Positions 1-6,764 of a stretch of 64,000 bases of DNA are shown piece by piece. Both the position numbers and the translations under genes were made by a program. The first letter of the stretch is position 1. Every line of letters begins with the position of its first letter. This stretch comes from Acidobacteriota bacterium (GTDB taxonomy: Bacteria; Acidobacteriota; UBA890; WLXD01): contig CAXWPL010000004.1 of the NCBI GenBank assembly GCA_963666215.2, positions 416,001 to 480,000 on the forward strand. Direction: 5' to 3'. The notes under the pieces were generated by a model, which saw only the letters and a list, made by a program, of their open reading frames with translations, did no database searches and was not told the origin of the DNA.

Positions 1-425
1 CGCAGCAACATCGTTGCCCGCACGACCTCCGCCGAGAAGTAGTTGCTCGGGGCCCTGAAGTCGGAAGTCTGTCCCACTCCAACGGCGTGACTGAGAAGGA
101 TCTTGCGCTGCAGCTCCTCGAGCTCGTCGGGATCGATCGGGATGTTCTTGAACTCGCCGAACCCGGTGGTGACCCCGTAGTCGGTAGCCGGCGGCCGCTC
201 TGCCCCGGCTTCATAATCGGATTTGCTCTTCTTGTAGGCCTCGACGCGCTTGACGAGCTCGGCGCGGACCGCTTCTACGCGCTCGCGCGCGGCAGGTGAG
301 ATGCGGATCCGGCGCCCGCCTCGAGCTACCTCGACGAGCCGGTCGAGGTTGAGGTTCTCGCCCGTCAGCTCGAGCGAGTCATCCTTGGAGTGAGCGTGAT
401 CGGGATTCGCCGGACCGTCGTTCAC
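1..425 (-). CDS. hutH: Histidine ammonia-lyase / aromatic amino-acid lyase (MIO family), N-terminal part; runs off the window edge
   Basis: Not in the ORF track. Hand translation from GTG at 425 (GTGA overlap with the hisS stop) gives LELTGENLNLDRLVEVARG...YGVTTGFGEFKNIPI...LQRKILLSHAVGVG...EVVRATMLLR, the HAL/PAL/TAL N-terminal signatures. Substrate specificity cannot be seen because the ASG motif lies outside the window. Confidence 0.85.
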   Translation of the reverse strand, partial: MNDGPANPDHAHSKDDSLELTGENLNLDRLVEVARGGRRIRISPAARERVEAVRAELVKRVEAYKKSKSDYEAGAERPPATDYGVTTGFGEFKNIPIDPDELEELQRKILLSHAVGVGQTSDFRAPSNYFSAEVVRATMLL

Positions 426-1864
426 AGCCCGCTCTCGATGCGCCCCAGCAGTGCACCGAGGCGGCTCACGAGCTCGGCCCGCGGCGCCTCGAACTGGCCT
501 GGGCGCTCTTTGATCCAGTCGGCGCGGTCCTTGAGCTCTTCCGCGCTCCTACGGCCGACGTCCATGTCCTTGATCTGGACCTGTCCCGACTCCTTCTCGC
601 GCGTCCCGTAAATCACGGCAACCGGGATGTCGCAACGGTCGGCGTACTTGAGCTGCTTGCCGATACCCCGCTCGGTGCCGAGGTAGAGCTCGGTTCGGAT
701 GCCGGCGCGGCGCAGCTCGTACGTCATCTCGAGGTAGTCGCTCGTGAGGCTCTCGTCCATGTTGATGACAAGCACCTGCGCGGTGGACCACTTGAGCTTC
801 ACGGCGCCAATGTCGACCAGCGCGGCCAACAACCGATCGACGCCCATAGAGGCACCGGTTGCCGGAATCGCTTCGCCGGTGAAGCGCTGCACAAGCTCGT
901 CGTAGCGGCCGCCGCCGAATACCGATCCGAAGCGTGGGGCGTCACGCAGGTACGCTTCGAAGACCGGGCCTGTGTAGTAGGCCAGGCCGCGAGCAATACT
1001 CAGATCGACAACCACGCGATCGTTGCCATACCCGAGAGCGGCCAGGTGGCCGGAGATGCGGTCGATGACGTCGATCTCGGCGCCGGCCTGAGCCAGGCCG
1101 GAAAACAGATCGCGTAGCTGGGCGATGACCTCGCCGCGCTCATCGGAACGAATCGCCAGAAAGAGCTCGATACGATCGACCTGTTCGCTCGTGAGGCCGA
1201 GCCCGGGGATCTGATCGCCCGATTCGTCTTTGTAGCCGGTCGTGAGCTCCAGGCGGACCTTGGCCGGCCCGATTTTCTCGAGCTTGTCGAGCACACGGAA
1301 AACGTCGGTGGACCTGTCGCGCGAGATTCCGGCGAAGTCGAGCAGCAGGTTGAGCACGCTCCGGCTCGAGAAACGAACGACGTAGTTGTCGACATCGAGC
1401 GCCGATAGCGTGTCGCACATGCCGGCGATGATCTCGGTGTCGGCAACCTCCGACGGAGCCCCCACCGAGTCAAGATCGAACTGGGTGAACTCGCGGTAGC
1501 GACCGGGGCCCGGCTTGTCGGCGCGCCAGACCGGCGAGACTTGGTAGCGGCGGAACGGCCGAGGCAAATCGACGTACTGGGAAACCACCCGCGCCAACGG
1601 CACCGTGAGGTCGAACCGCAATCCGAGCCCGCGCTCCTCTGGCTCGCGAGGATTGTCGACATGGAAGATCGACTGCTGCGCCTCATCGCCGCCGGTCCCC
1701 GAGAGCACATCGAGAAACTCGAACGCCGGCGTCTGTAACGGCACGAATCCGTAGAGCTCGTACACGCCACGAACCTTGGAGAGCATCCACTGCCGAGCCT
1801 GCATGTGATCGGGCAGTTGATCGCGAAGCCCGCGCGACAAGCCGGGAGTAACGAGATCTGACAT
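422..1864 (-). CDS. hisS: Histidine--tRNA ligase, alphaproteobacterial/eukaryote-like subtype
   Basis: LRFDLTVPLAR (HisA-type motif), motif 2 VWRADKPGPGRYREFTQFDLD, RGLAYYTG, GGGRYD, anticodon-binding domain KQLKYAD. Start taken at ATG 1864 (MSDLVTPG), because the longer track ORF runs through the tRNA gene. Confidence 0.96.
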   Translation of the reverse strand: MSDLVTPGLSRGLRDQLPDHMQARQWMLSKVRGVYELYGFVPLQTPAFEFLDVLSGTGGDEAQQSIFHVDNPREPEERGLGLRFDLTVPLARVVSQYVDLPRPFRRYQVSPVWRADKPGPGRYREFTQFDLDSVGAPSEVADTEIIAGMCDTLSALDVDNYVVRFSSRSVLNLLLDFAGISRDRSTDVFRVLDKLEKIGPAKVRLELTTGYKDESGDQIPGLGLTSEQVDRIELFLAIRSDERGEVIAQLRDLFSGLAQAGAEIDVIDRISGHLAALGYGNDRVVVDLSIARGLAYYTGPVFEAYLRDAPRFGSVFGGGRYDELVQRFTGEAIPATGASMGVDRLLAALVDIGAVKLKWSTAQVLVINMDESLTSDYLEMTYELRRAGIRTELYLGTERGIGKQLKYADRCDIPVAVIYGTREKESGQVQIKDMDVGRRSAEELKDRADWIKERPGQFEAPRAELVSRLGALLGRIESGL

Positions 1865-2054
1865 AGGTGGTTTGCCTGACTGAATGGCGGTCGTCAGGAC
1901 CGCGGCGCTCCGTGCGGCAGTGCAGTACCGCGCAGGACTGGAGCCGCTCGCGTCGGGGTACCGAGAGCGACGCGGCGGCGGTTGAAGCTCGAACAGAGTC
2001 AAGAATCGGTCACGCGTGCCCCGAGCATGAGCGGGACGCGGACCGAAGTTGGAG

Positions 2055-2127
2055 TACCGGCGACGGGACTTGAACCCATGACCTCCTGATCCACAATCAG
2101 GCGCTCTACCAGCTGAGCTACGCCGGC
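2055..2127 (-). tRNA. tRNA-His (anticodon GTG), G1:U72 and A73, CCA not encoded
   Basis: Minus strand folds as GCCGGCG TA GCTC AGCTGGTA GAGC G CCTGA TTGTGGA TCAGG AGGTC ATGGG TTCAAGT CCCGT CGCCGGT A: a full 73-nt cloverleaf, followed by CTCCA. Confidence 0.95.
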
Positions 2128-2250
2128 CCCAGGGCCAAACTACGGGCGCTAGTGTAGCGGTAAAACAAAGTCTCCGACGCGCCAATCACCCGGCGGATTG
2201 GCAGCGAGCATCGAGGCCTCGGGAAGTTGAACCACGTACAATGCGCAGCC

Positions 2251-2844
2251 ATGAAAATCATCCCGAACGCTCGTGCGTGCGCCCTCGTGGCGCTTCTGGT
2301 TTCGATCGGCTGCCAGCCGCAGCAGCAACCCGAGCCCGCTGCCGCGGCGGACCCGGTGACCACGGTGATCTACTTGATGCGTCACGCCGAGACGCTATTG
2401 CCGCCACCCGAGGACGCGCCGCGTGACCCGCCGCTCAACATCATGGGACAAGAACGCGCCGACGCGTTGGCGCGACTGCTGTCGAGCGAGCCCATCACGC
2501 AGATCTTCAGCACCGAGTTGCGGCGCACGCAGGAAACTGCGGCACCGCTCGCCGCCCGGCTCGGGATCGCGGTAGCCCCGTACGATCCGTCCGACCTGGA
2601 AACGTTCGCCGGGGTGCTCAAGGCAGCATCAGGCCGCGTTGTGGTATCCGGGCATAGCAACACCACGCCGGTGCTCGTCGGATTTCTCGGGGGAGAGCCC
2701 GGAGAGCCGATCGACGAGAGTGTGGAGTACGACCGGCTGTACACGGTGATCGTCCGCAACGGCGAGGTGGTGACGACGCTGCTTCAGCGCTACGGAGATC
2801 CGCTACCCGACAACTGGCAGGAGCTGGCTTCGACGCGACGTTGA
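2251..2844 (+). CDS. Histidine phosphatase (SixA/phosphoglycerate mutase-like) family lipoprotein
   Basis: Lipobox-like VSIGC after a hydrophobic stretch; IYLMRHAE catalytic motif, RTQETA, SGHSNT. Confidence 0.85.
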   Translation: MKIIPNARACALVALLVSIGCQPQQQPEPAAAADPVTTVIYLMRHAETLLPPPEDAPRDPPLNIMGQERADALARLLSSEPITQIFSTELRRTQETAAPLAARLGIAVAPYDPSDLETFAGVLKAASGRVVVSGHSNTTPVLVGFLGGEPGEPIDESVEYDRLYTVIVRNGEVVTTLLQRYGDPLPDNWQELASTRR

Positions 2845-2853
2845 GTCAGGCAA

Positions 2854-3468
2854 TCACTCGGGGCGGGGCCGCTGCAGGATGCACACGATCTCGTCGCCAC
2901 CGAACGCCGTGTCGCCGACCGTCATGCCGAGCAACTCGAATCCCTCCGCGCCGGCCTCGGAGAGCTCTTTCTCCATCGTTGACGTTCGATTCGTGGCGAG
3001 CAGCAGGTACTCGTGCGGCACGGGCTCCGAGAACAGATCGAGCTCGACGATCACGGCGACCTCGTTGCCGCCCCAGAGGCTGTCGAAAACCGTCTGGCCT
3101 CGATAGCGGAAACCTTCGGCACCGACCTCATTGAGCTCCTTTTGCATGGTCGAGGTGCGCTGTGTGGCCTGGAGCTTGTACTCGTAGCGCCGCTCGTGGG
3201 GGGTGTCGGGCGATCGAACAACGGTTGCCACAACCTCATCCCCGCCGTGGGCAGTGTTGCCGCCCATCACGTTGGCGAGCCGAAACCCCTCGCCGGCCGC
3301 TTCGTTGAGCTCCTTCTCCAGAGTCGACGTCTTCGTTGTTGCGAGCAGGCGATACTCGTAGGCGGTCTCGACAGCCGCGACCGTCGGCGCGAGCGCTAGG
3401 GTGGATGCGGCACCGAACGAGCCGAGGGCCGAAACGAGCAAAACAGGAACCAGCAGCGCTACAGGCAT
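2854..3468 (-). CDS. Secreted protein with three tandem DUF4177-like repeats
   Basis: Signal peptide, then three copies of (Y/H)EY.L(L/Q)AT..TST(L/M).KEL.E...EGF; GGGAGA RBS before ATG 3468. Confidence 0.7.
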   Translation of the reverse strand: MPVALLVPVLLVSALGSFGAASTLALAPTVAAVETAYEYRLLATTKTSTLEKELNEAAGEGFRLANVMGGNTAHGGDEVVATVVRSPDTPHERRYEYKLQATQRTSTMQKELNEVGAEGFRYRGQTVFDSLWGGNEVAVIVELDLFSEPVPHEYLLLATNRTSTMEKELSEAGAEGFELLGMTVGDTAFGGDEIVCILQRPRPE

Positions 3469-3513
3469 GGAGTTCTCCCGGCGAAGCAAGGTCGGCGGAG
3501 CGGAGCAGAGGAC

Positions 3514-4287
3514 GTGAAAGAACAGTCTACCGGGGGAGCTGAGTCTCCCGCAGGTCCCCGAGCGCTCGGGACGCCGCCGGCGACCTCACGGACTTCGAAC
3601 GGCAACCGACTCGTCGGCATCTTGGCGCTGGCGGCCGTCGCTGCGGCAGTGGCGATAGCAGCGCAATCATGGGCTGCCGGCGGCCTGCTGGCGAACCTGT
3701 TGCGAGGCGATCTCGGCGCCTCGGCCAAGGTCAACCTGCTGCGCGCCGGTTTCCTGGAGTTCGGCCTCCTGGCTCCGCTCGTGTACGTCGCGTTCAGGAC
3801 CGTCGAGGTCGTCGTCGCGCCCATTCCCGGCACGCTTCTCTACGCGCCCGGCTGAGCGCTCTTCGGCGGCTTCTGGGGAGGGCTGCTATCGCTCGTGGGC
3901 AACGTGATCGGCGCCGGAGTGGCGTTTCTGGCCACGCGTCACCTGCTGGCGCCGCGTCTCATCGGCAACGAGGGCAAGCTCGCGAGCACCGCCGAACGCC
4001 TGTCGCGTCACGGTTTCTGGGTGGTGCTCTTGCTGCGCGTCAACCCGCTGACCTCATCGGACTTCGTCTCGTACGCCGCCGGCCTGACGTCGATGTCGCT
4101 GCCGAGGCTGCTCACAGCGACAGGTCTCGGGATGGCGCCGCTCTGCTTCGCCCAGGCATATCTCGCGGAGAGCTTGCTCGAATCGATGCCCTGGCTGCTG
4201 TACCCGCTGATCGTCGCCGGTGTCGCCTACGTGGTGTGGGCGGTCGTTGTGGTGAAGGCTCTCGTACGGCAGTCGCCGGACGACTGA
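3514..4287 (+). pseudogene. TVP38/TMEM64 (VTT/DedA-like) membrane protein interrupted by an in-frame TGA at 3853-3855
   Basis: VVVAPIPGTLLYAPG*ALFGGFWGGLLSLVGNVIGA continues in frame to LLRVNPLTSSDFVSYAAGLT; the TGA sits where GGA (Gly) is expected. Confidence 0.75.
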
Positions 4288-4289
4288 GG

Positions 4290-6185
4290 CTATTCCTCCG
4301 GTATGACTGGCAGGATCAGATGCGAGGGGTGCTCGGCCGAATGATGCACCGCGTTCCGGGCCACAACCCACTCGGTCTCATCAAAGTTGTTGCCGCCCGT
4401 GTTGAGGTTGCGCTCGTAGAGCGGGAAGTCGCTGCTCGACACCTGCAGCCGAATCCTGTGTCCCGCCGCGAAGTAGTTGCTGCTGGCGTCCAGATCGATC
4501 TGAATCTTGTAGACGCCGCCCTCTTCCATCCAGACCTTTCGATCAAAGCCGTCGCGATAACGCGCGCGGAGGACGCTGGTCTGGATGTTGTAGGCCGTGC
4601 CGTCGGGGTACACGTCAACGAGCTTGCTGGTGAAGTCGGTGTCCTTGGCCGACGACGAGACGTAGAGAACAGCCGTGATCGGGCCGGTCACCTCGATCCC
4701 TTCCTCGAGCGGCGGCGTTGTGTACACCAGCACGTCGTTGCGAATGTCGACGGTCGCCTGGTCGACCGCCCCCGACGACGTACCCCATGAGGTGCCCCTC
4801 TGACCTCCCACCGAGGGCACGGGACGCGCTGGGTCGTAGATGAAGGTGTCCGGCGGCCGGTCCCCCGGCGGATCAATAGAGAGACTGCCATCGCCATAGC
4901 GGCTGTTGGCGCTGCCGTCGCTGTGGAGGTAGAAGTTCGTGTACCGCGTCTCGGGCAACGGCCACGCATCCGCCGAGCCCCACTCGTTACGACCCATCGT
5001 GTAGTACTGGACCTTCGGCATGTCGGTAATACCGTTGTCCTTGCCCTTCAGCCAGTGCTCGAACCAGTCGATGTAGATGCGGTAGTACTCGAGCCGGGCA
5101 TCACCAACATCGCGATCGCCGACCATCGTGTGCGCCGTTGCCTGCTCATAGCTGCAATGTGTCGTCGGCGCGACGATCAGAAACTGGTTCTCGGCGGCCG
5201 TCTGCGACACCGCGTTCTCCCTGAACAGATTGAACTCGTAGATCGTCTCGGCGACGCTGATGTCGTACCAGGAGCTCACGTGCAGCGCCGGCACACTGAT
5301 CTTCTCGGTGCCGTCGTAGTAACCCATCACGTCGTGCCACCACGGATCGTCGAATCCGCGCTCAACCAGGTGGAGCCAATCGTTGGGCGGCGCTCCCGCC
5401 TTGTCCATGATGTCAACCAACGGCAGCGTCCAGACGAGCTTCTCCCAGTCTGGCTCCGGCGCCTCGGTAGCCTCGGGATCGTAGAGCTCGCGAATTCTGC
5501 GAACCTCGGCGTCGGACAGACCGGGCGGCGGCTTGAACGAGTACTTGTTGCCGGTTCGGAAGTACCACGGCAGCGTGACGGCGAAGTCGAGCACCCCACC
5601 CTTGAAGCCCGACCAGTAGCGGTAGCGACCGTTGGCGGCACCGATCATCGGACCGTTCCTCGGAATCATGGTCGTCAGGTTGGGGTGACGCAGAGGCGCG
5701 GTGGCGGCTTGTACCTCGGCGGGATACGAGCAGCCGTGCATCCCCACCCTGCCGTTCGACCACGGCTGCTTGGCGATCCAATCGACGGCGTCGTAGCCAT
5801 CGACGGCCTCGCTCCCGGCCGGCGGTGAGTAGATCCCCTCCGACTCGAACTTGCCGCGGCTGTCCTGGACGGCAACCACGAAGCCGTGCGACGCGAACAT
5901 GTACGCGTCGTCGTTCTTCGCGTCCCTGAAGGTGTTCTTGTTGTACGGCGTTCGGATGAGAACTACCGGGAGCTTGTCGTCCGGAATCTCGGGAAAGTAG
6001 GGATCGGTGGCCAAGCGCACACCGTCGCGCATCGGCACCATGTGGCTCTTCTCGAGCCGGACGTCGTTCATCGAACCGGGTCTTTGGATCGGTCCGGAGG
6101 AGTCCTGTGGCGCTGCCTGCTGGCGCGGCAGAAGGACGAGTAGAGGAACGACTGTCAGTAGCCACCAGCGCTTGCGCATGATCAT
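4290..6185 (-). CDS. CocE/NonD family (peptidase S15) alpha/beta hydrolase, secreted
   Basis: VPMRDGVRLATD, RTPY, QDSRGKFESEG, GCSY nucleophile elbow, FAAGHRIRLQVSSSDFP C-terminal motif, signal peptide. Confidence 0.92.
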   Translation of the reverse strand: MIMRKRWWLLTVVPLLVLLPRQQAAPQDSSGPIQRPGSMNDVRLEKSHMVPMRDGVRLATDPYFPEIPDDKLPVVLIRTPYNKNTFRDAKNDDAYMFASHGFVVAVQDSRGKFESEGIYSPPAGSEAVDGYDAVDWIAKQPWSNGRVGMHGCSYPAEVQAATAPLRHPNLTTMIPRNGPMIGAANGRYRYWSGFKGGVLDFAVTLPWYFRTGNKYSFKPPPGLSDAEVRRIRELYDPEATEAPEPDWEKLVWTLPLVDIMDKAGAPPNDWLHLVERGFDDPWWHDVMGYYDGTEKISVPALHVSSWYDISVAETIYEFNLFRENAVSQTAAENQFLIVAPTTHCSYEQATAHTMVGDRDVGDARLEYYRIYIDWFEHWLKGKDNGITDMPKVQYYTMGRNEWGSADAWPLPETRYTNFYLHSDGSANSRYGDGSLSIDPPGDRPPDTFIYDPARPVPSVGGQRGTSWGTSSGAVDQATVDIRNDVLVYTTPPLEEGIEVTGPITAVLYVSSSAKDTDFTSKLVDVYPDGTAYNIQTSVLRARYRDGFDRKVWMEEGGVYKIQIDLDASSNYFAAGHRIRLQVSSSDFPLYERNLNTGGNNFDETEWVVARNAVHHSAEHPSHLILPVIPEE

Positions 6186-6380
6186 CCTCCTGCGATGCGG
6201 GGGTCCGTTGCTGGCTGCGGAATCTAGCTCTTGCCCGCCACGGATACAACGGATGCAACGAGCTCGGTCACGACGAGCGGAATGAGCCGAGCGGCTGGTG
6301 CGCGCAGCGCGCGGTCGATCGACGGCGTCACTCCTGCCGCAAGGCGTCGACCGGGTCGGTGCGCAGCGCGCGCAGAGCGG

Positions 6381-6764
6381 GTCGTGGGTGCCGGCGTGGC
6401 GTTTCTAGCCACGCGTCAGCTGTTGGCGTCGCGCCTCATCGGCGATGAGAGCAAGCTTTCGAGCACCGCCGAGCGTCTTTCACGGCATGGTTTCTGGGTG
6501 GTGCTGTTGCTGCGCGTGAACCCGCTGACTTCGTCCGACCTCGTGTCGTACGCCGCCGGCCTGACATCGATGTCGCTGCGAACGTTGCTCACCGCCACCG
6601 GCCTCGGAATGGCACCGCTCTGCTTTGCCCAGGCGTATCTCGCCGAGAGCCTGCTCGAGTCGATGCTGTGGTTGCTGTACCCGCTAATCGTTGCGGGTAT
6701 CGGCTACGTGGTCTGGGCCGTCGTCGCTGTGAGGACCTTGGTAGGGAATTCGCAAGCTGACTGA
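6381..6764 (+). pseudogene. Second, 5'-truncated copy of the TVP38/TMEM64 3' half
   Basis: Collinear, gap-free paralog of 3904-4287 (GAGVAFLATR.LLA.RLIG.E.KL.STAERLSRHGFWVVLLLRVNPLTSSD); no homologous 5' half upstream. Confidence 0.75.

What the first reader, a model, noticed from the sequence alone, without database searches (positions are those of the whole stretch)
422..2127. Co-located non-canonical tRNA-His (G1:U72, A73) and alphaproteobacterial-type HisRS in an apparently non-alphaproteobacterial host
Seen: acceptor stem GCCGGCG/CGCCGGT with discriminator A73, not the near-universal bacterial G-1:C73. The gene lies about 190 bp upstream of hisS on the same strand. The HisRS has KPGPGR in motif 2, the LELTTGYKDESGD..PGLGL insertion and a C-terminal DW...RPGQF tail, which I recognise from Rhizobiales/Caulobacter HisRS. 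Known: a subgroup of Alphaproteobacteria (including Rhizobiales, Rhodobacterales, Caulobacterales) lost G-1 and uses U72/A73 plus the anticodon with a divergent HisRS that is orthogonal to E. coli. Inference: the identity-switched tRNA/synthetase pair occurs here as a linked cassette in an Acidobacteria-like genome, which suggests co-transfer or a donor lineage for the switch. The genomic -1 base is G, opposite A73, so the mature 5' end could be G-1-less or eukaryote-like (G-1/A73).
Basis: partly seen in the sequence, partly recalled or inferred. Interest (0 to 1): 0.85.

Follow-up and report, generated by a model that had tools for sequence, protein, structure and literature searches.

The report
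Transferred histidine tRNA–synthetase gene pair
An acidobacterium has swapped its normal histidine tRNA and charging enzyme for a linked foreign pair that uses recognition rules previously reported only from one group of alphaproteobacteria, which suggests this rule change spreads between bacteria as a gene cassette.

Summary
Window 2055-2127 (-) is the genome's only tRNA-His (G1:U72, A73, genomic -1 G). It lies 190 nt upstream of the only hisS (422-1864, -), whose product has no Gln in the motif-2 loop (KPGPGR), a ~15-aa insertion and a C-terminal tail.

The host is Acidobacteriota. All 10 same-family and 14 of 15 same-order genomes carry canonical hisS. The three same-family tRNA-His genes I read are G-1:C73. 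In this genome both native slots are empty.

The pair belongs to a conserved block, tRNA-His, hisS and an ammonia-lyase gene, found in several other Acidobacteriota families labelled Thermoanaerobaculia.

The HisRS shares a clade with the alphaproteobacterial (RRCH) enzyme but is not derived from it. RRCH nests among Planctomycetota and Lernaella sequences. In all 31 genomes with this HisRS type where I read a tRNA-His, it has U72 and A73 (G73 in two).

Best reading: a mutually orthogonal tRNA/synthetase pair arrived by horizontal transfer and displaced the native pair.

Not shown: the mature 5' end, charging specificity and the donor.

I found no report of this pair outside Alphaproteobacteria, but the two founding papers were not held.

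The parts
2055..2127 (-). tRNA-His(GUG) of the G-1-less type: G1:U72, C2:G71, C3:G70, A73. The D-loop is 8 nt, CCA is not encoded, and the genomic -1 base (2128) is G.
   Evidence: It is the only tRNA-His among 50 tRNAs in the genome.
1865..2054 (-). 190-nt spacer between the tRNA and hisS, probably part of one transcript. No sigma-70-like promoter or terminator-like site was found in it.
   Evidence: no promoter-like site in 300-2500 and no terminator-like site between 1865 and 2054; fold z-score -2.39 (4 of 200 shuffles fold as well); a 221-nt contig from an RNA library covers 1813-2033, which is weak because DNA carry-over is possible. In 17 related loci the first long-ORF start lies 3-141 nt after the tRNA.
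422..1864 (-). hisS, 480 aa. It is a G-1-independent-type HisRS: motif-2 loop KPGPGR without Gln, a ~15-aa catalytic-domain insertion (GYKDESGDQIPGLGL) and a C-terminal tail (DWIKERPGQF).
1..425 (-). 5' part of an aromatic-amino-acid/histidine ammonia-lyase-like gene. Its GTG start overlaps the hisS stop (GTGA). It continues beyond the window to G000 C4:414167 and forms the third member of the conserved block.
   Evidence: ORF. NF006871 histidine ammonia-lyase, 354.5 bits, below cut-off on a truncated query; the same gene lies directly downstream of hisS in 15 distinct related loci; 0 of 5 same-family genomes have a homologue at E<=1e-30.

Best explanation
The window carries a self-contained histidine-decoding module: tRNA-His, then hisS, then an ammonia-lyase-like gene, all on one strand and probably transcribed together. 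The tRNA has no G-1:C73 pair. By analogy with the Caulobacter enzyme, the HisRS should recognise the GUG anticodon plus U72 and A73 rather than G-1. This step is inferred. The tRNA and enzyme types are mutually orthogonal to the canonical bacterial pair. That was shown for Caulobacter versus E. coli and is inferred here. The two genes can therefore only establish in a new host together, and their adjacency makes that possible. The module entered an ancestor of this genus by horizontal transfer from another Acidobacteriota lineage whose closest sampled relatives are labelled Thermoanaerobaculia. It coexisted for a time with the native G-1/C73 tRNA-His and canonical HisRS. Both native genes were then deleted. 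The gene content, the empty native sites and the phylogeny are shown. The order of events, the transient two-pair stage and the biochemical specificity are inferred.
For: (1) Xenology. 0 of 25 other genomes of the host's class have a P0001-like HisRS (E<=1e-20; E<=1e-60). 24 of those 25 have a canonical hisS at 330-479 bits against TIGR00442. The canonical enzymes of two same-family and one same-order genome are only 26-28% identical to P0001.
(2) Same-family genomes G001, G003 and G007 have G-1:C73 tRNA-His. In G001 and G003 it lies just 5' of tRNA-Arg(ccg), and G001 continues with Lys(ctt) and Leu(tag). The window's genome has the same Arg-Lys-Leu cluster at C4:643508-643823, behind a conserved TTGAC/TACGAT promoter-like motif, but without the tRNA-His.
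(3) In G001, G003 and G006 the canonical hisS lies between two genes whose orthologues in the window's genome (C5:161398-162849 and C5:162902-163567) are about 50-75 bp apart by their tblastn ends. This is a clean loss.
(4) In a sample of 401 genomes of the phylum, 15 including this one have a P0001-like HisRS at E<=1e-100. 11 of the other 14 have tRNA-His directly upstream on the same strand. All of those have G1:U72 and A73, with G73 in one.
(5) The ammonia-lyase-like gene follows hisS in 15 distinct related loci. No homologue was found in 5 of 5 same-family genomes. A gene 2.2 kb away is 79-80% identical to its counterpart in same-family genomes, so the contig itself is native.
(6) In the careful tree the window sits in a 13-row Acidobacteriota-dominated clade (97/99).
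(7) 10 of 10 tested genomes with this HisRS type have only one full HisRS.
(8) Published biochemistry for Caulobacter (PMC3064791, whole text except reference-list tail): U72C costs 91-fold, A73C 3-fold, added G-1 5-fold, anticodon changes 91-1000-fold, and E. coli tRNA-His is 250-fold worse. The enzyme does not charge total E. coli tRNA.
Against: The closest sampled HisRS is only 68-71% identical, so the donor is unsampled or the transfer is old. GC3 of hisS (0.78) is like that of neighbouring genes, so composition gives no signal of foreignness. I did not look for integrase or transposase genes or for repeat boundaries around the block. The insertion site could not be defined, because the ammonia-lyase gene has no family counterpart and the next native gene belongs to a multi-copy family. 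No genome with both pairs was seen. The genome is 91.7% complete, so a second hisS or tRNA-His in the missing part cannot be strictly excluded. The window's tRNA departs from its relatives in having an 8-nt D-loop, no encoded CCA and G at -1. No charging or 5'-end data exist for any non-alphaproteobacterial member.
Confidence: 0.8

Rival explanations
1. Vertical inheritance: the G-1-less pair is ancestral in this part of Acidobacteriota. This genome simply kept it, while its class relatives reverted to, or acquired, the canonical pair.
For: The type occurs in at least 8 other GTDB families of the phylum. Composition of the genes is host-like.
Against: 24 of 25 class relatives carry canonical hisS. 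In the three same-family genomes examined it lies in one conserved neighbourhood whose flanking genes are adjacent in this genome. The native tRNA operon is conserved minus tRNA-His. The window's HisRS nests inside a clade of other families rather than branching outside them. The block's third gene was not found in 5 of 5 same-family genomes.
Confidence: 0.07
2. Artefact: the cassette lies on a mis-binned or chimeric piece of assembly and belongs to another organism in the sample.
For: Contamination of the genome is estimated at 2.97%. Many related records are metagenome bins with doubtful labels.
Against: The block is 416 kb into a 1.06-Mb contig. That contig also carries the family-typical Arg-Lys-Leu tRNA cluster and, 2.2 kb from the tRNA, a gene 79-80% identical to same-family genomes. 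It holds the only hisS and the only tRNA-His in the genome. Both native sites are empty. Contigs from other studies span the tRNA and its flanks without differences.
Confidence: 0.03
3. Eukaryote-like mode: the mature tRNA keeps or receives G-1 opposite A73, and the HisRS still uses it.
For: The genomic -1 base is G here and in one close relative, L086. Caulobacter HisRS tolerates added G-1 with only a 5-fold loss (PMC3064791).
Against: No Thg1 match in the genome, whereas the control genome Methanosarcina acetivorans did match. Counting genomes, with one entry for the two whose twin copies agree, -1 is T in 26 of 31, C in 3 and G in 2. The motif-2 loop lacks the Gln, which the literature (PMC3937112, passages) says contacts G-1:C73. 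According to PMC3064791 and PMC3245924, RNase P retains G-1 only when it pairs with C73.
Confidence: 0.07
4. Convergence: Acidobacteriota and RRCH alphaproteobacteria evolved the same identity switch independently.
For: The backbone of the clade is unresolved, and its separation from Gln-type relatives has only 87/88 support.
Against: Three independent HisRS features co-occur across the clade: loss of the loop Gln, the same insertion with the G-[YR]-x-D-x-S-G motif, and the same C-terminal tail. All three are absent from the nearest Gln-type enzymes. The tRNAs share G1:U72, C2:G71, A73 and A38, and most share the 9-nt D-loop.
Confidence: 0.03

Closest known systems
G-1-less tRNA-His / divergent HisRS pair of RRCH Alphaproteobacteria (Caulobacter crescentus; Yuan et al. 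2011, PMC3064791. Ardell & Andersson 2006 and Wang et al. 2007 are recalled and known through citing papers; neither was held).
   Same: The tRNA has G1:U72, A73 and C3:G70 and no templated G-1:C73 pair. The HisRS lacks the motif-2 loop Gln (Gly here), and has the same insertion and C-terminal tail. It shares a HisRS clade with RRCH and is 39-46% identical to them. There is a single pair per genome and no Thg1.
   Different: The host is Acidobacteriota. The tRNA is physically linked to hisS and an ammonia-lyase gene, whereas none of the 59 loci titled as alphaproteobacterial has a tRNA-His within 1.5 kb. The pair was acquired recently enough that class relatives are still canonical. The D-loop is 8 nt rather than 9. 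The HisRS is in a different subclade from RRCH.
Canonical bacterial histidine identity: genome-encoded G-1 paired to C73, retained by RNase P, read by a HisRS with a Gln-containing motif-2 loop (E. coli type).
   Same: It has the same function and the same enzyme family (TIGR00442). This is the system used by 24 of 25 genomes of the host's class.
   Different: The window's tRNA has A73/U72 and cannot form G-1:C73. Its HisRS is 26-28% identical to the canonical enzymes of two same-family and one same-order genome and has KPGPGR where they have RPQKGR.
Eukaryotic systems: Thg1-added G-1 opposite A73, and the G-1-independent HisRS of Trypanosoma and Acanthamoeba (PMC4338351, search listing and abstract only; PMC9976931, passages).
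   Same: The discriminator is A73. The HisRS belongs to the eukaryote/archaea-like sequence class: after 3net and 6nhi, the best solved-structure matches are human cytoplasmic HisRS at E 1e-48, against about 1e-19 for E. coli-type chains.
   Different: There is no Thg1. U72 is a feature of the bacterial G-1-less group. The enzyme is bacterial and part of a gene cassette.
pylT-pylS cassette, a tRNA/synthetase pair that moves between genomes as a unit (recalled; not examined here).
   Same: Both have an orthogonal tRNA and its synthetase encoded side by side, which allows joint horizontal transfer.
   Different: The pyl cassette adds a new amino acid at a stop codon. This cassette replaces the existing decoding system for a standard amino acid.

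Membership tests
G-1-less (RRCH-type) HisRS/tRNA-His pair | tRNA-His gene without a templated G-1:C73 pair; discriminator A73 | tested here: met
   Position 73 is A. The -1 base is G but cannot pair with A73. The same holds in three RRCH control genomes.
G-1-less (RRCH-type) HisRS/tRNA-His pair | G1:U72 first base pair. U72 is a major determinant in Caulobacter, where U72C costs 91-fold. | tested here: met
   G1 pairs with T72 in the gene. U72 is present in all 31 genomes of this type that I read.
G-1-less (RRCH-type) HisRS/tRNA-His pair | 9-nt D-loop with U20a | tested here: not met
   The window's D-loop is 8 nt. In the 17-sequence alignment, 7 of the 10 other G-1-less tRNAs have 9 nt. Removing 20a cost only 2-fold in Caulobacter (PMC3064791).
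G-1-less (RRCH-type) HisRS/tRNA-His pair | HisRS motif-2 loop lacks the Gln that reads G-1:C73 (Gly in RRCH) | tested here: met
   The window has KPGPGR. Canonical relatives have RPQKGR, and RRCH controls have KPGPGR.
G-1-less (RRCH-type) HisRS/tRNA-His pair | Characteristic peptide insertions, including a C-terminal element | tested here: met
   The insertion GYKDESGDQIPGLGL and the tail DWIKERPGQF align with the RRCH sequences. Both are absent from Gln-type enzymes.
G-1-less (RRCH-type) HisRS/tRNA-His pair | HisRS groups phylogenetically with RRCH enzymes rather than with Gln-type enzymes | tested here: met
   The 61-row clade separates from 13 Gln-type rows at 87/88, which is moderate. The window is in a different subclade from RRCH.
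G-1-less (RRCH-type) HisRS/tRNA-His pair | Mature tRNA starts at +1; charging depends on the anticodon and U72/A73; orthogonal to the canonical pair | not testable with these tools
   This needs tRNA 5'-end mapping and aminoacylation assays.
Histidine--tRNA ligase (TIGR00442 / PF13393 + PF03129) | Score above the curated cut-off, with a catalytic core and an anticodon-binding domain | tested here: met
   TIGR00442 scores 346.6 bits against a cut-off of 286.75. PF13393 has E 2.6e-47 and PF03129 has E 9.8e-15.
Thg1-dependent (eukaryote-like) G-1/A73 system | A Thg1/TLP gene in the genome | tested here: not met
   PF04446 gives no match at E<=0.001 in the 91.7%-complete genome. The control genome Methanosarcina acetivorans matched.
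Canonical bacterial G-1:C73 system | Templated G-1 opposite C73 and a Gln-bearing motif-2 loop | tested here: not met
   The window has A73 and KPGPGR. There is no second tRNA-His or hisS.

The most novel reading that the evidence does not exclude
The G-1-less histidine identity system is not an in-situ invention and unique synapomorphy of RRCH Alphaproteobacteria. It is a mobile tRNA-His/hisS module, often with an ammonia-lyase gene. It has displaced the near-universal G-1 system repeatedly, in Acidobacteriota, Planctomycetota, Lernaella, Zixiibacteriota, Hydrogenedentota and others. The alphaproteobacterial system is itself one such acquisition, tRNA included, from a Planctomycetota- or Lernaella-like donor. 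The genome in this window captures a recent swap, with both native genes cleanly deleted.
Probability: 0.45. Interest if true: 0.85.

Novelty: new variant of a known kind. Interest (0 to 1): 0.72.

Why it matters
G-1 of tRNA-His is one of the most conserved tRNA identity elements. Its loss has been described as confined to one alphaproteobacterial clade:
[quoted passage not shown] If the present reading holds, three things follow.
1. The system is spread over several phyla.
2. It travels as a linked tRNA-synthetase cassette. This gives a concrete mechanism for how a change of identity rules can cross species boundaries without a lethal intermediate, because the incoming pair is orthogonal to the resident one.
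3. This genome and its canonical family relatives form a natural before-and-after comparison. It allows study of how a translation system absorbs such a swap, including knock-on changes in other tRNAs and in RNase P.

It also questions using this trait as a phylogenetic marker within Alphaproteobacteria. In addition, it offers many new natural orthogonal HisRS/tRNA-His pairs for genetic-code engineering.

Tried and rejected
- Remnant of the native tRNA-His. The 78 nt between the conserved promoter-like motif and tRNA-Arg at G000 C4:643430-643507 shows no similarity to the relatives' tRNA-His. Alignment score was 6 against a shuffle mean of 5.4, with 212 of 500 shuffles as good; the second comparison scored 2 against 3.9. 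I make no pseudogene claim.
- Regulatory RNA in the spacer. Rfam at E<=1 found only the tRNA in 1-4000. The spacer fold has a z-score of -2.39 and its length is not conserved in relatives. I make no claim.
- BLAST of the tRNA against relatives mostly returned other tRNAs. I replaced it with a tRNA-His covariance model, R1.
- Insertion boundaries. The ammonia-lyase gene has no family counterpart, and the next gene belongs to a family with 9-14 copies per genome. Exact boundaries were therefore not defined.
- Genomes with both pairs. None was seen among 41 relatives or 10 carriers. The second, weaker hits (87-106 bits, no anticodon domain) are taken as HisZ-like paralogues, which I did not verify.
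- G408, the Vicinamibacteria-labelled bin. No tRNA-His was found; its best model hits were other tRNAs.
- RNA evidence. One contig of an RNA library covers 1813-2033. It cannot show a transcript start or exclude DNA carry-over. The parts of the stretch without cover in that run mean nothing.
- Literature. Searches returned no report of this pair outside Alphaproteobacteria, apart from alphaproteobacterial phage tRNAs in PMC5389517. One search was swamped by ecology papers. One search looked for Ardell & Andersson 2006 and found only four citing papers. Ardell & Andersson 2006 and Wang et al. 2007 were not held, so their content is recalled or taken from citing papers. Supplements were not consulted. 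Figure S1 of PMC3937112 is known only from its legend.
- Not used: structure prediction, complex prediction and the protein atlas.
Full report
**What is there.** On the minus strand of window 1-2127 lie, in order, a tRNA-His(GTG) gene (2055-2127), a 190-nt spacer, hisS (1864-422, 480 aa), and the start of an ammonia-lyase-like gene. The lyase gene's GTG start overlaps the hisS stop.

The tRNA scores 71.6 bits against Rfam tRNA. Its acceptor stem is GCCGGCG/CGCCGGT, giving G1:U72. The discriminator is A73, the genomic -1 base is G, the D-loop is 8 nt, and CCA is not encoded.

The protein is a HisRS: 346.6 bits against TIGR00442, cut-off 286.75.

The assembly has 5 contigs, 4.65 Mb, and is 91.7% complete with 2.97% contamination. 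It holds 50 tRNA genes with one tRNA-His, one hisS and no Thg1 match. Contigs from other public runs reproduce the tRNA and its flanks with no differences.

**Host.** The closest proteins, 66-71% identical, are named Thermoanaerobaculia or Acidobacteriota. G102 is in the same GTDB phylum as the window's genome. It is the record titled 'Acidobacteria bacterium', with 1200 nt identical. The phylum is therefore Acidobacteriota. The host's own class is small: 26 species genomes in two families.

**The pair is foreign to its own lineage.**
- None of the 25 other genomes of the class has a P0001-like HisRS (E<=1e-20; E<=1e-60).
- 24 of the 25 have a canonical hisS at 330-479 bits against TIGR00442. 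The exception, G022, is 83% complete.
- The canonical enzymes of two same-family and one same-order genome are 26-28% identical to the window's enzyme. Their motif-2 loop reads RPQKGR.
- In G001, G003 and G006 the canonical hisS sits between two genes. Their orthologues in the window's genome are C5:161398-162849 (64-69% identical) and C5:162902-163567. These lie about 50-75 bp apart by their tblastn ends, with no hisS between them.
- In G001 and G003 a G-1:C73 tRNA-His lies just 5' of tRNA-Arg(ccg), and G001 continues with Lys(ctt) and Leu(tag). G007's tRNA-His, at the end of its locus, is also G-1:C73.
- The window's genome has the same Arg-Lys-Leu cluster and the same TTGAC/TACGAT promoter-like motif. 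In place of the tRNA-His there are 78 nt with no detectable similarity to it.
- Both native genes are thus missing from their expected sites, and the only replacements are the linked pair in the window.
- The contig is native around the block: a gene 2.2 kb away is 79-80% identical to same-family genomes.

**The pair is a conserved cassette elsewhere in the phylum.**
- Among 401 sampled genomes of the phylum, 15 including this one have a P0001-like HisRS at E<=1e-100. They fall in families f32, f81, f65, f88, f96, f54, f4 and f21.
- 11 of the other 14 have tRNA-His directly upstream on the same strand. The other three have it elsewhere in the genome.
- Four named Acidobacteriota records, one of them the same record as G102, show the same arrangement, two of them with tandem tRNA copies. 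So do a 'Bacteroidetes' bin and an unlabelled bin.
- The first long-ORF start lies 3-141 nt after the tRNA.
- An aromatic-amino-acid/histidine ammonia-lyase-like gene follows hisS in 15 distinct loci at 35-57% identity. No homologue was found in 5 of 5 same-family genomes at E<=1e-30.
- The transferred unit is therefore at least tRNA-His, hisS and the lyase gene, about 4 kb.
- The closest relative is the Thermoanaerobaculia-labelled L086. It gives the best match for the lyase gene (54%) and stands just behind L073 for HisRS (67.6% against 68.0%). By eye its tRNA body is the most similar, and it also has G at -1.

**Relation to the alphaproteobacterial system.**
- A search of 1.84 billion cluster representatives shows three features that co-occur: loss of the motif-2 loop Gln, an insertion with G-[YR]-x-D-x-S-G, and a C-terminal tail. 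They are absent from the nearest Gln-type enzymes.
- Named members include Planctomycetota (among them Candidatus Uabimicrobium and a bin with a 7-Mb contig), Phycisphaerales, Candidatus Lernaella, Zixiibacteriota, Hydrogenedentota, bins labelled Nitrospiraceae and Bacteroidetes, and many RRCH alphaproteobacteria. Labels on short bin contigs may be wrong.
- The careful tree has 74 rows and 491 columns. I chose the rows from 80 named loci, 20 phylum loci and 150 representatives.
  - The feature-bearing clade has 61 rows and separates from 13 Gln-type rows at 87/88.
  - The window lies in a 13-row clade (97/99), whose sister is G027 plus P0124 (98/98).
  - The 19 RRCH rows form a clade (100/98) that is sister to Lernaella (100/97). 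Both sit inside a 28-row Planctomycetota-rich clade (100/98).
- An AU test rejects an exclusive group of the window's clade plus RRCH. The log-likelihood difference is 201 and p is 4.6e-56, but the group was named after the tree was seen.
- The window's enzyme is therefore of the same type as the alphaproteobacterial one without being derived from it.

**Covariation of tRNA and enzyme.** I used a tRNA-His covariance model on genomes reached through the loci, together with the linked genes.
- I read tRNA-His in 31 genomes that carry this HisRS type: 28 non-alphaproteobacterial, including this one, and 3 RRCH controls.
- All 31 have U72.
- Position 73 is A in 29 and G in 2, both in family f81.
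- One bin has T at position 1.
- Counting genomes, with one entry for the two whose twin copies agree, -1 is T in 26, C in 3 and G in 2.
- Five genomes with Gln-type enzymes (G001, G003, G007, G037, G039) have G-1:C73.
- 10 of 10 carriers tested have a single full HisRS.
- None of the 59 loci titled as alphaproteobacterial has a tRNA-His within 1.5 kb. Linkage is therefore a feature of the non-alphaproteobacterial branches, and it occurs on both sides of the tree (for example G276, L115 and L093).

**Mechanism, with shown and inferred steps kept apart.**
- Shown: the gene content, the linkage, the empty native sites, the phylogeny and the covariation.
- Taken from published work on Caulobacter (PMC3064791, whole text except reference-list tail): this enzyme type reads the anticodon and U72, with A73 as a minor element. 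It is indifferent or mildly averse to G-1. It does not charge E. coli tRNA-His, and canonical HisRS does not accept G-1-less tRNA.
- Inferred: the same holds here. Only a joint transfer can then work, and adjacency permits it. Both pairs coexisted for a time, after which the native pair was lost. RNase P cuts at +1 because G at -1 cannot pair with A73.

**Novelty.** The papers I could read restrict the system to Alphaproteobacteria: passages of PMC3245924, PMC3937112 and PMC9976931, and most of the text of PMC3064791. My searches found no wider report. The two founding papers were not held, so an earlier mention cannot be excluded.

Noticed in passing
G000 C4:414167-416425 (-); window 1-425 is its 5' end: The ammonia-lyase-like gene downstream of hisS has a single in-frame TGA at C4:414779-414781, inside the conserved ...EDHV.M....A[stop]RK... 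region. The frame stays open for 204 more codons. The homologue in G090 has Ala at that position. It may be a recent nonsense mutation in a passenger gene, a sequencing error or recoding; the genome has a tRNA-Sec.
   Followed up: partly
L076 (G062) 2969-3045 and 3193-3269; L088 1064-1140 and 1314-1390: Two tandem copies of the G-1-less tRNA-His lie upstream of hisS in these two Acidobacteriota loci.
   Followed up: no
L079 (G268) 1355-1429; L179 (G364) 1498-1572: Both genomes of family f81 have G73 instead of A73, with U72 kept. This fits position 73 being a minor determinant.
   Followed up: no
L176 (G406, bin labelled Planctomycetaceae) 652-727: The tRNA-His reads T at position 1, opposite T72. 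It could be a real U1-U72 mismatch or a sequencing error. The bin's HisRS (65% identical to the window's) and its lyase gene are of the Acidobacteriota type, so the phylum label may be wrong.
   Followed up: no
L103 (contig labelled Luminiphilus, a gammaproteobacterium): Its HisRS groups inside Rhodobacterales. The 8.6-kb contig is probably mis-binned.
   Followed up: no
L036 (G035) 2-1177; L037 (G036) 212-982: In two Acidobacteriota genomes with Gln-type HisRS, a homologous lyase gene lies upstream of hisS. G-1:C73 tRNA-His was checked only in a third genome of that HisRS group, G037. The hisS-lyase association may therefore be older than the identity switch.
   Followed up: no
window 4293-6404 (-): This roughly 700-aa protein belongs to a family with 9-14 copies per genome in three same-family genomes, and was not found in two others. 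I did not identify the family.
   Followed up: no
window 1700-2300: The stretch is held near-identically by 18 coded public runs across 9 of the 10 coded studies that hold any part of it, among them a run labelled seawater metagenome. The organism is recurrent. I looked no further into the samples.
   Followed up: no
G000, all 50 tRNA genes: By eye from the printed 3' ends, most tRNA genes of this genome do not encode CCA directly after the discriminator. The relatives' cassette tRNA-His genes mostly do. Here the 3' end reads A-C-T-C-C-A.
   Followed up: partly
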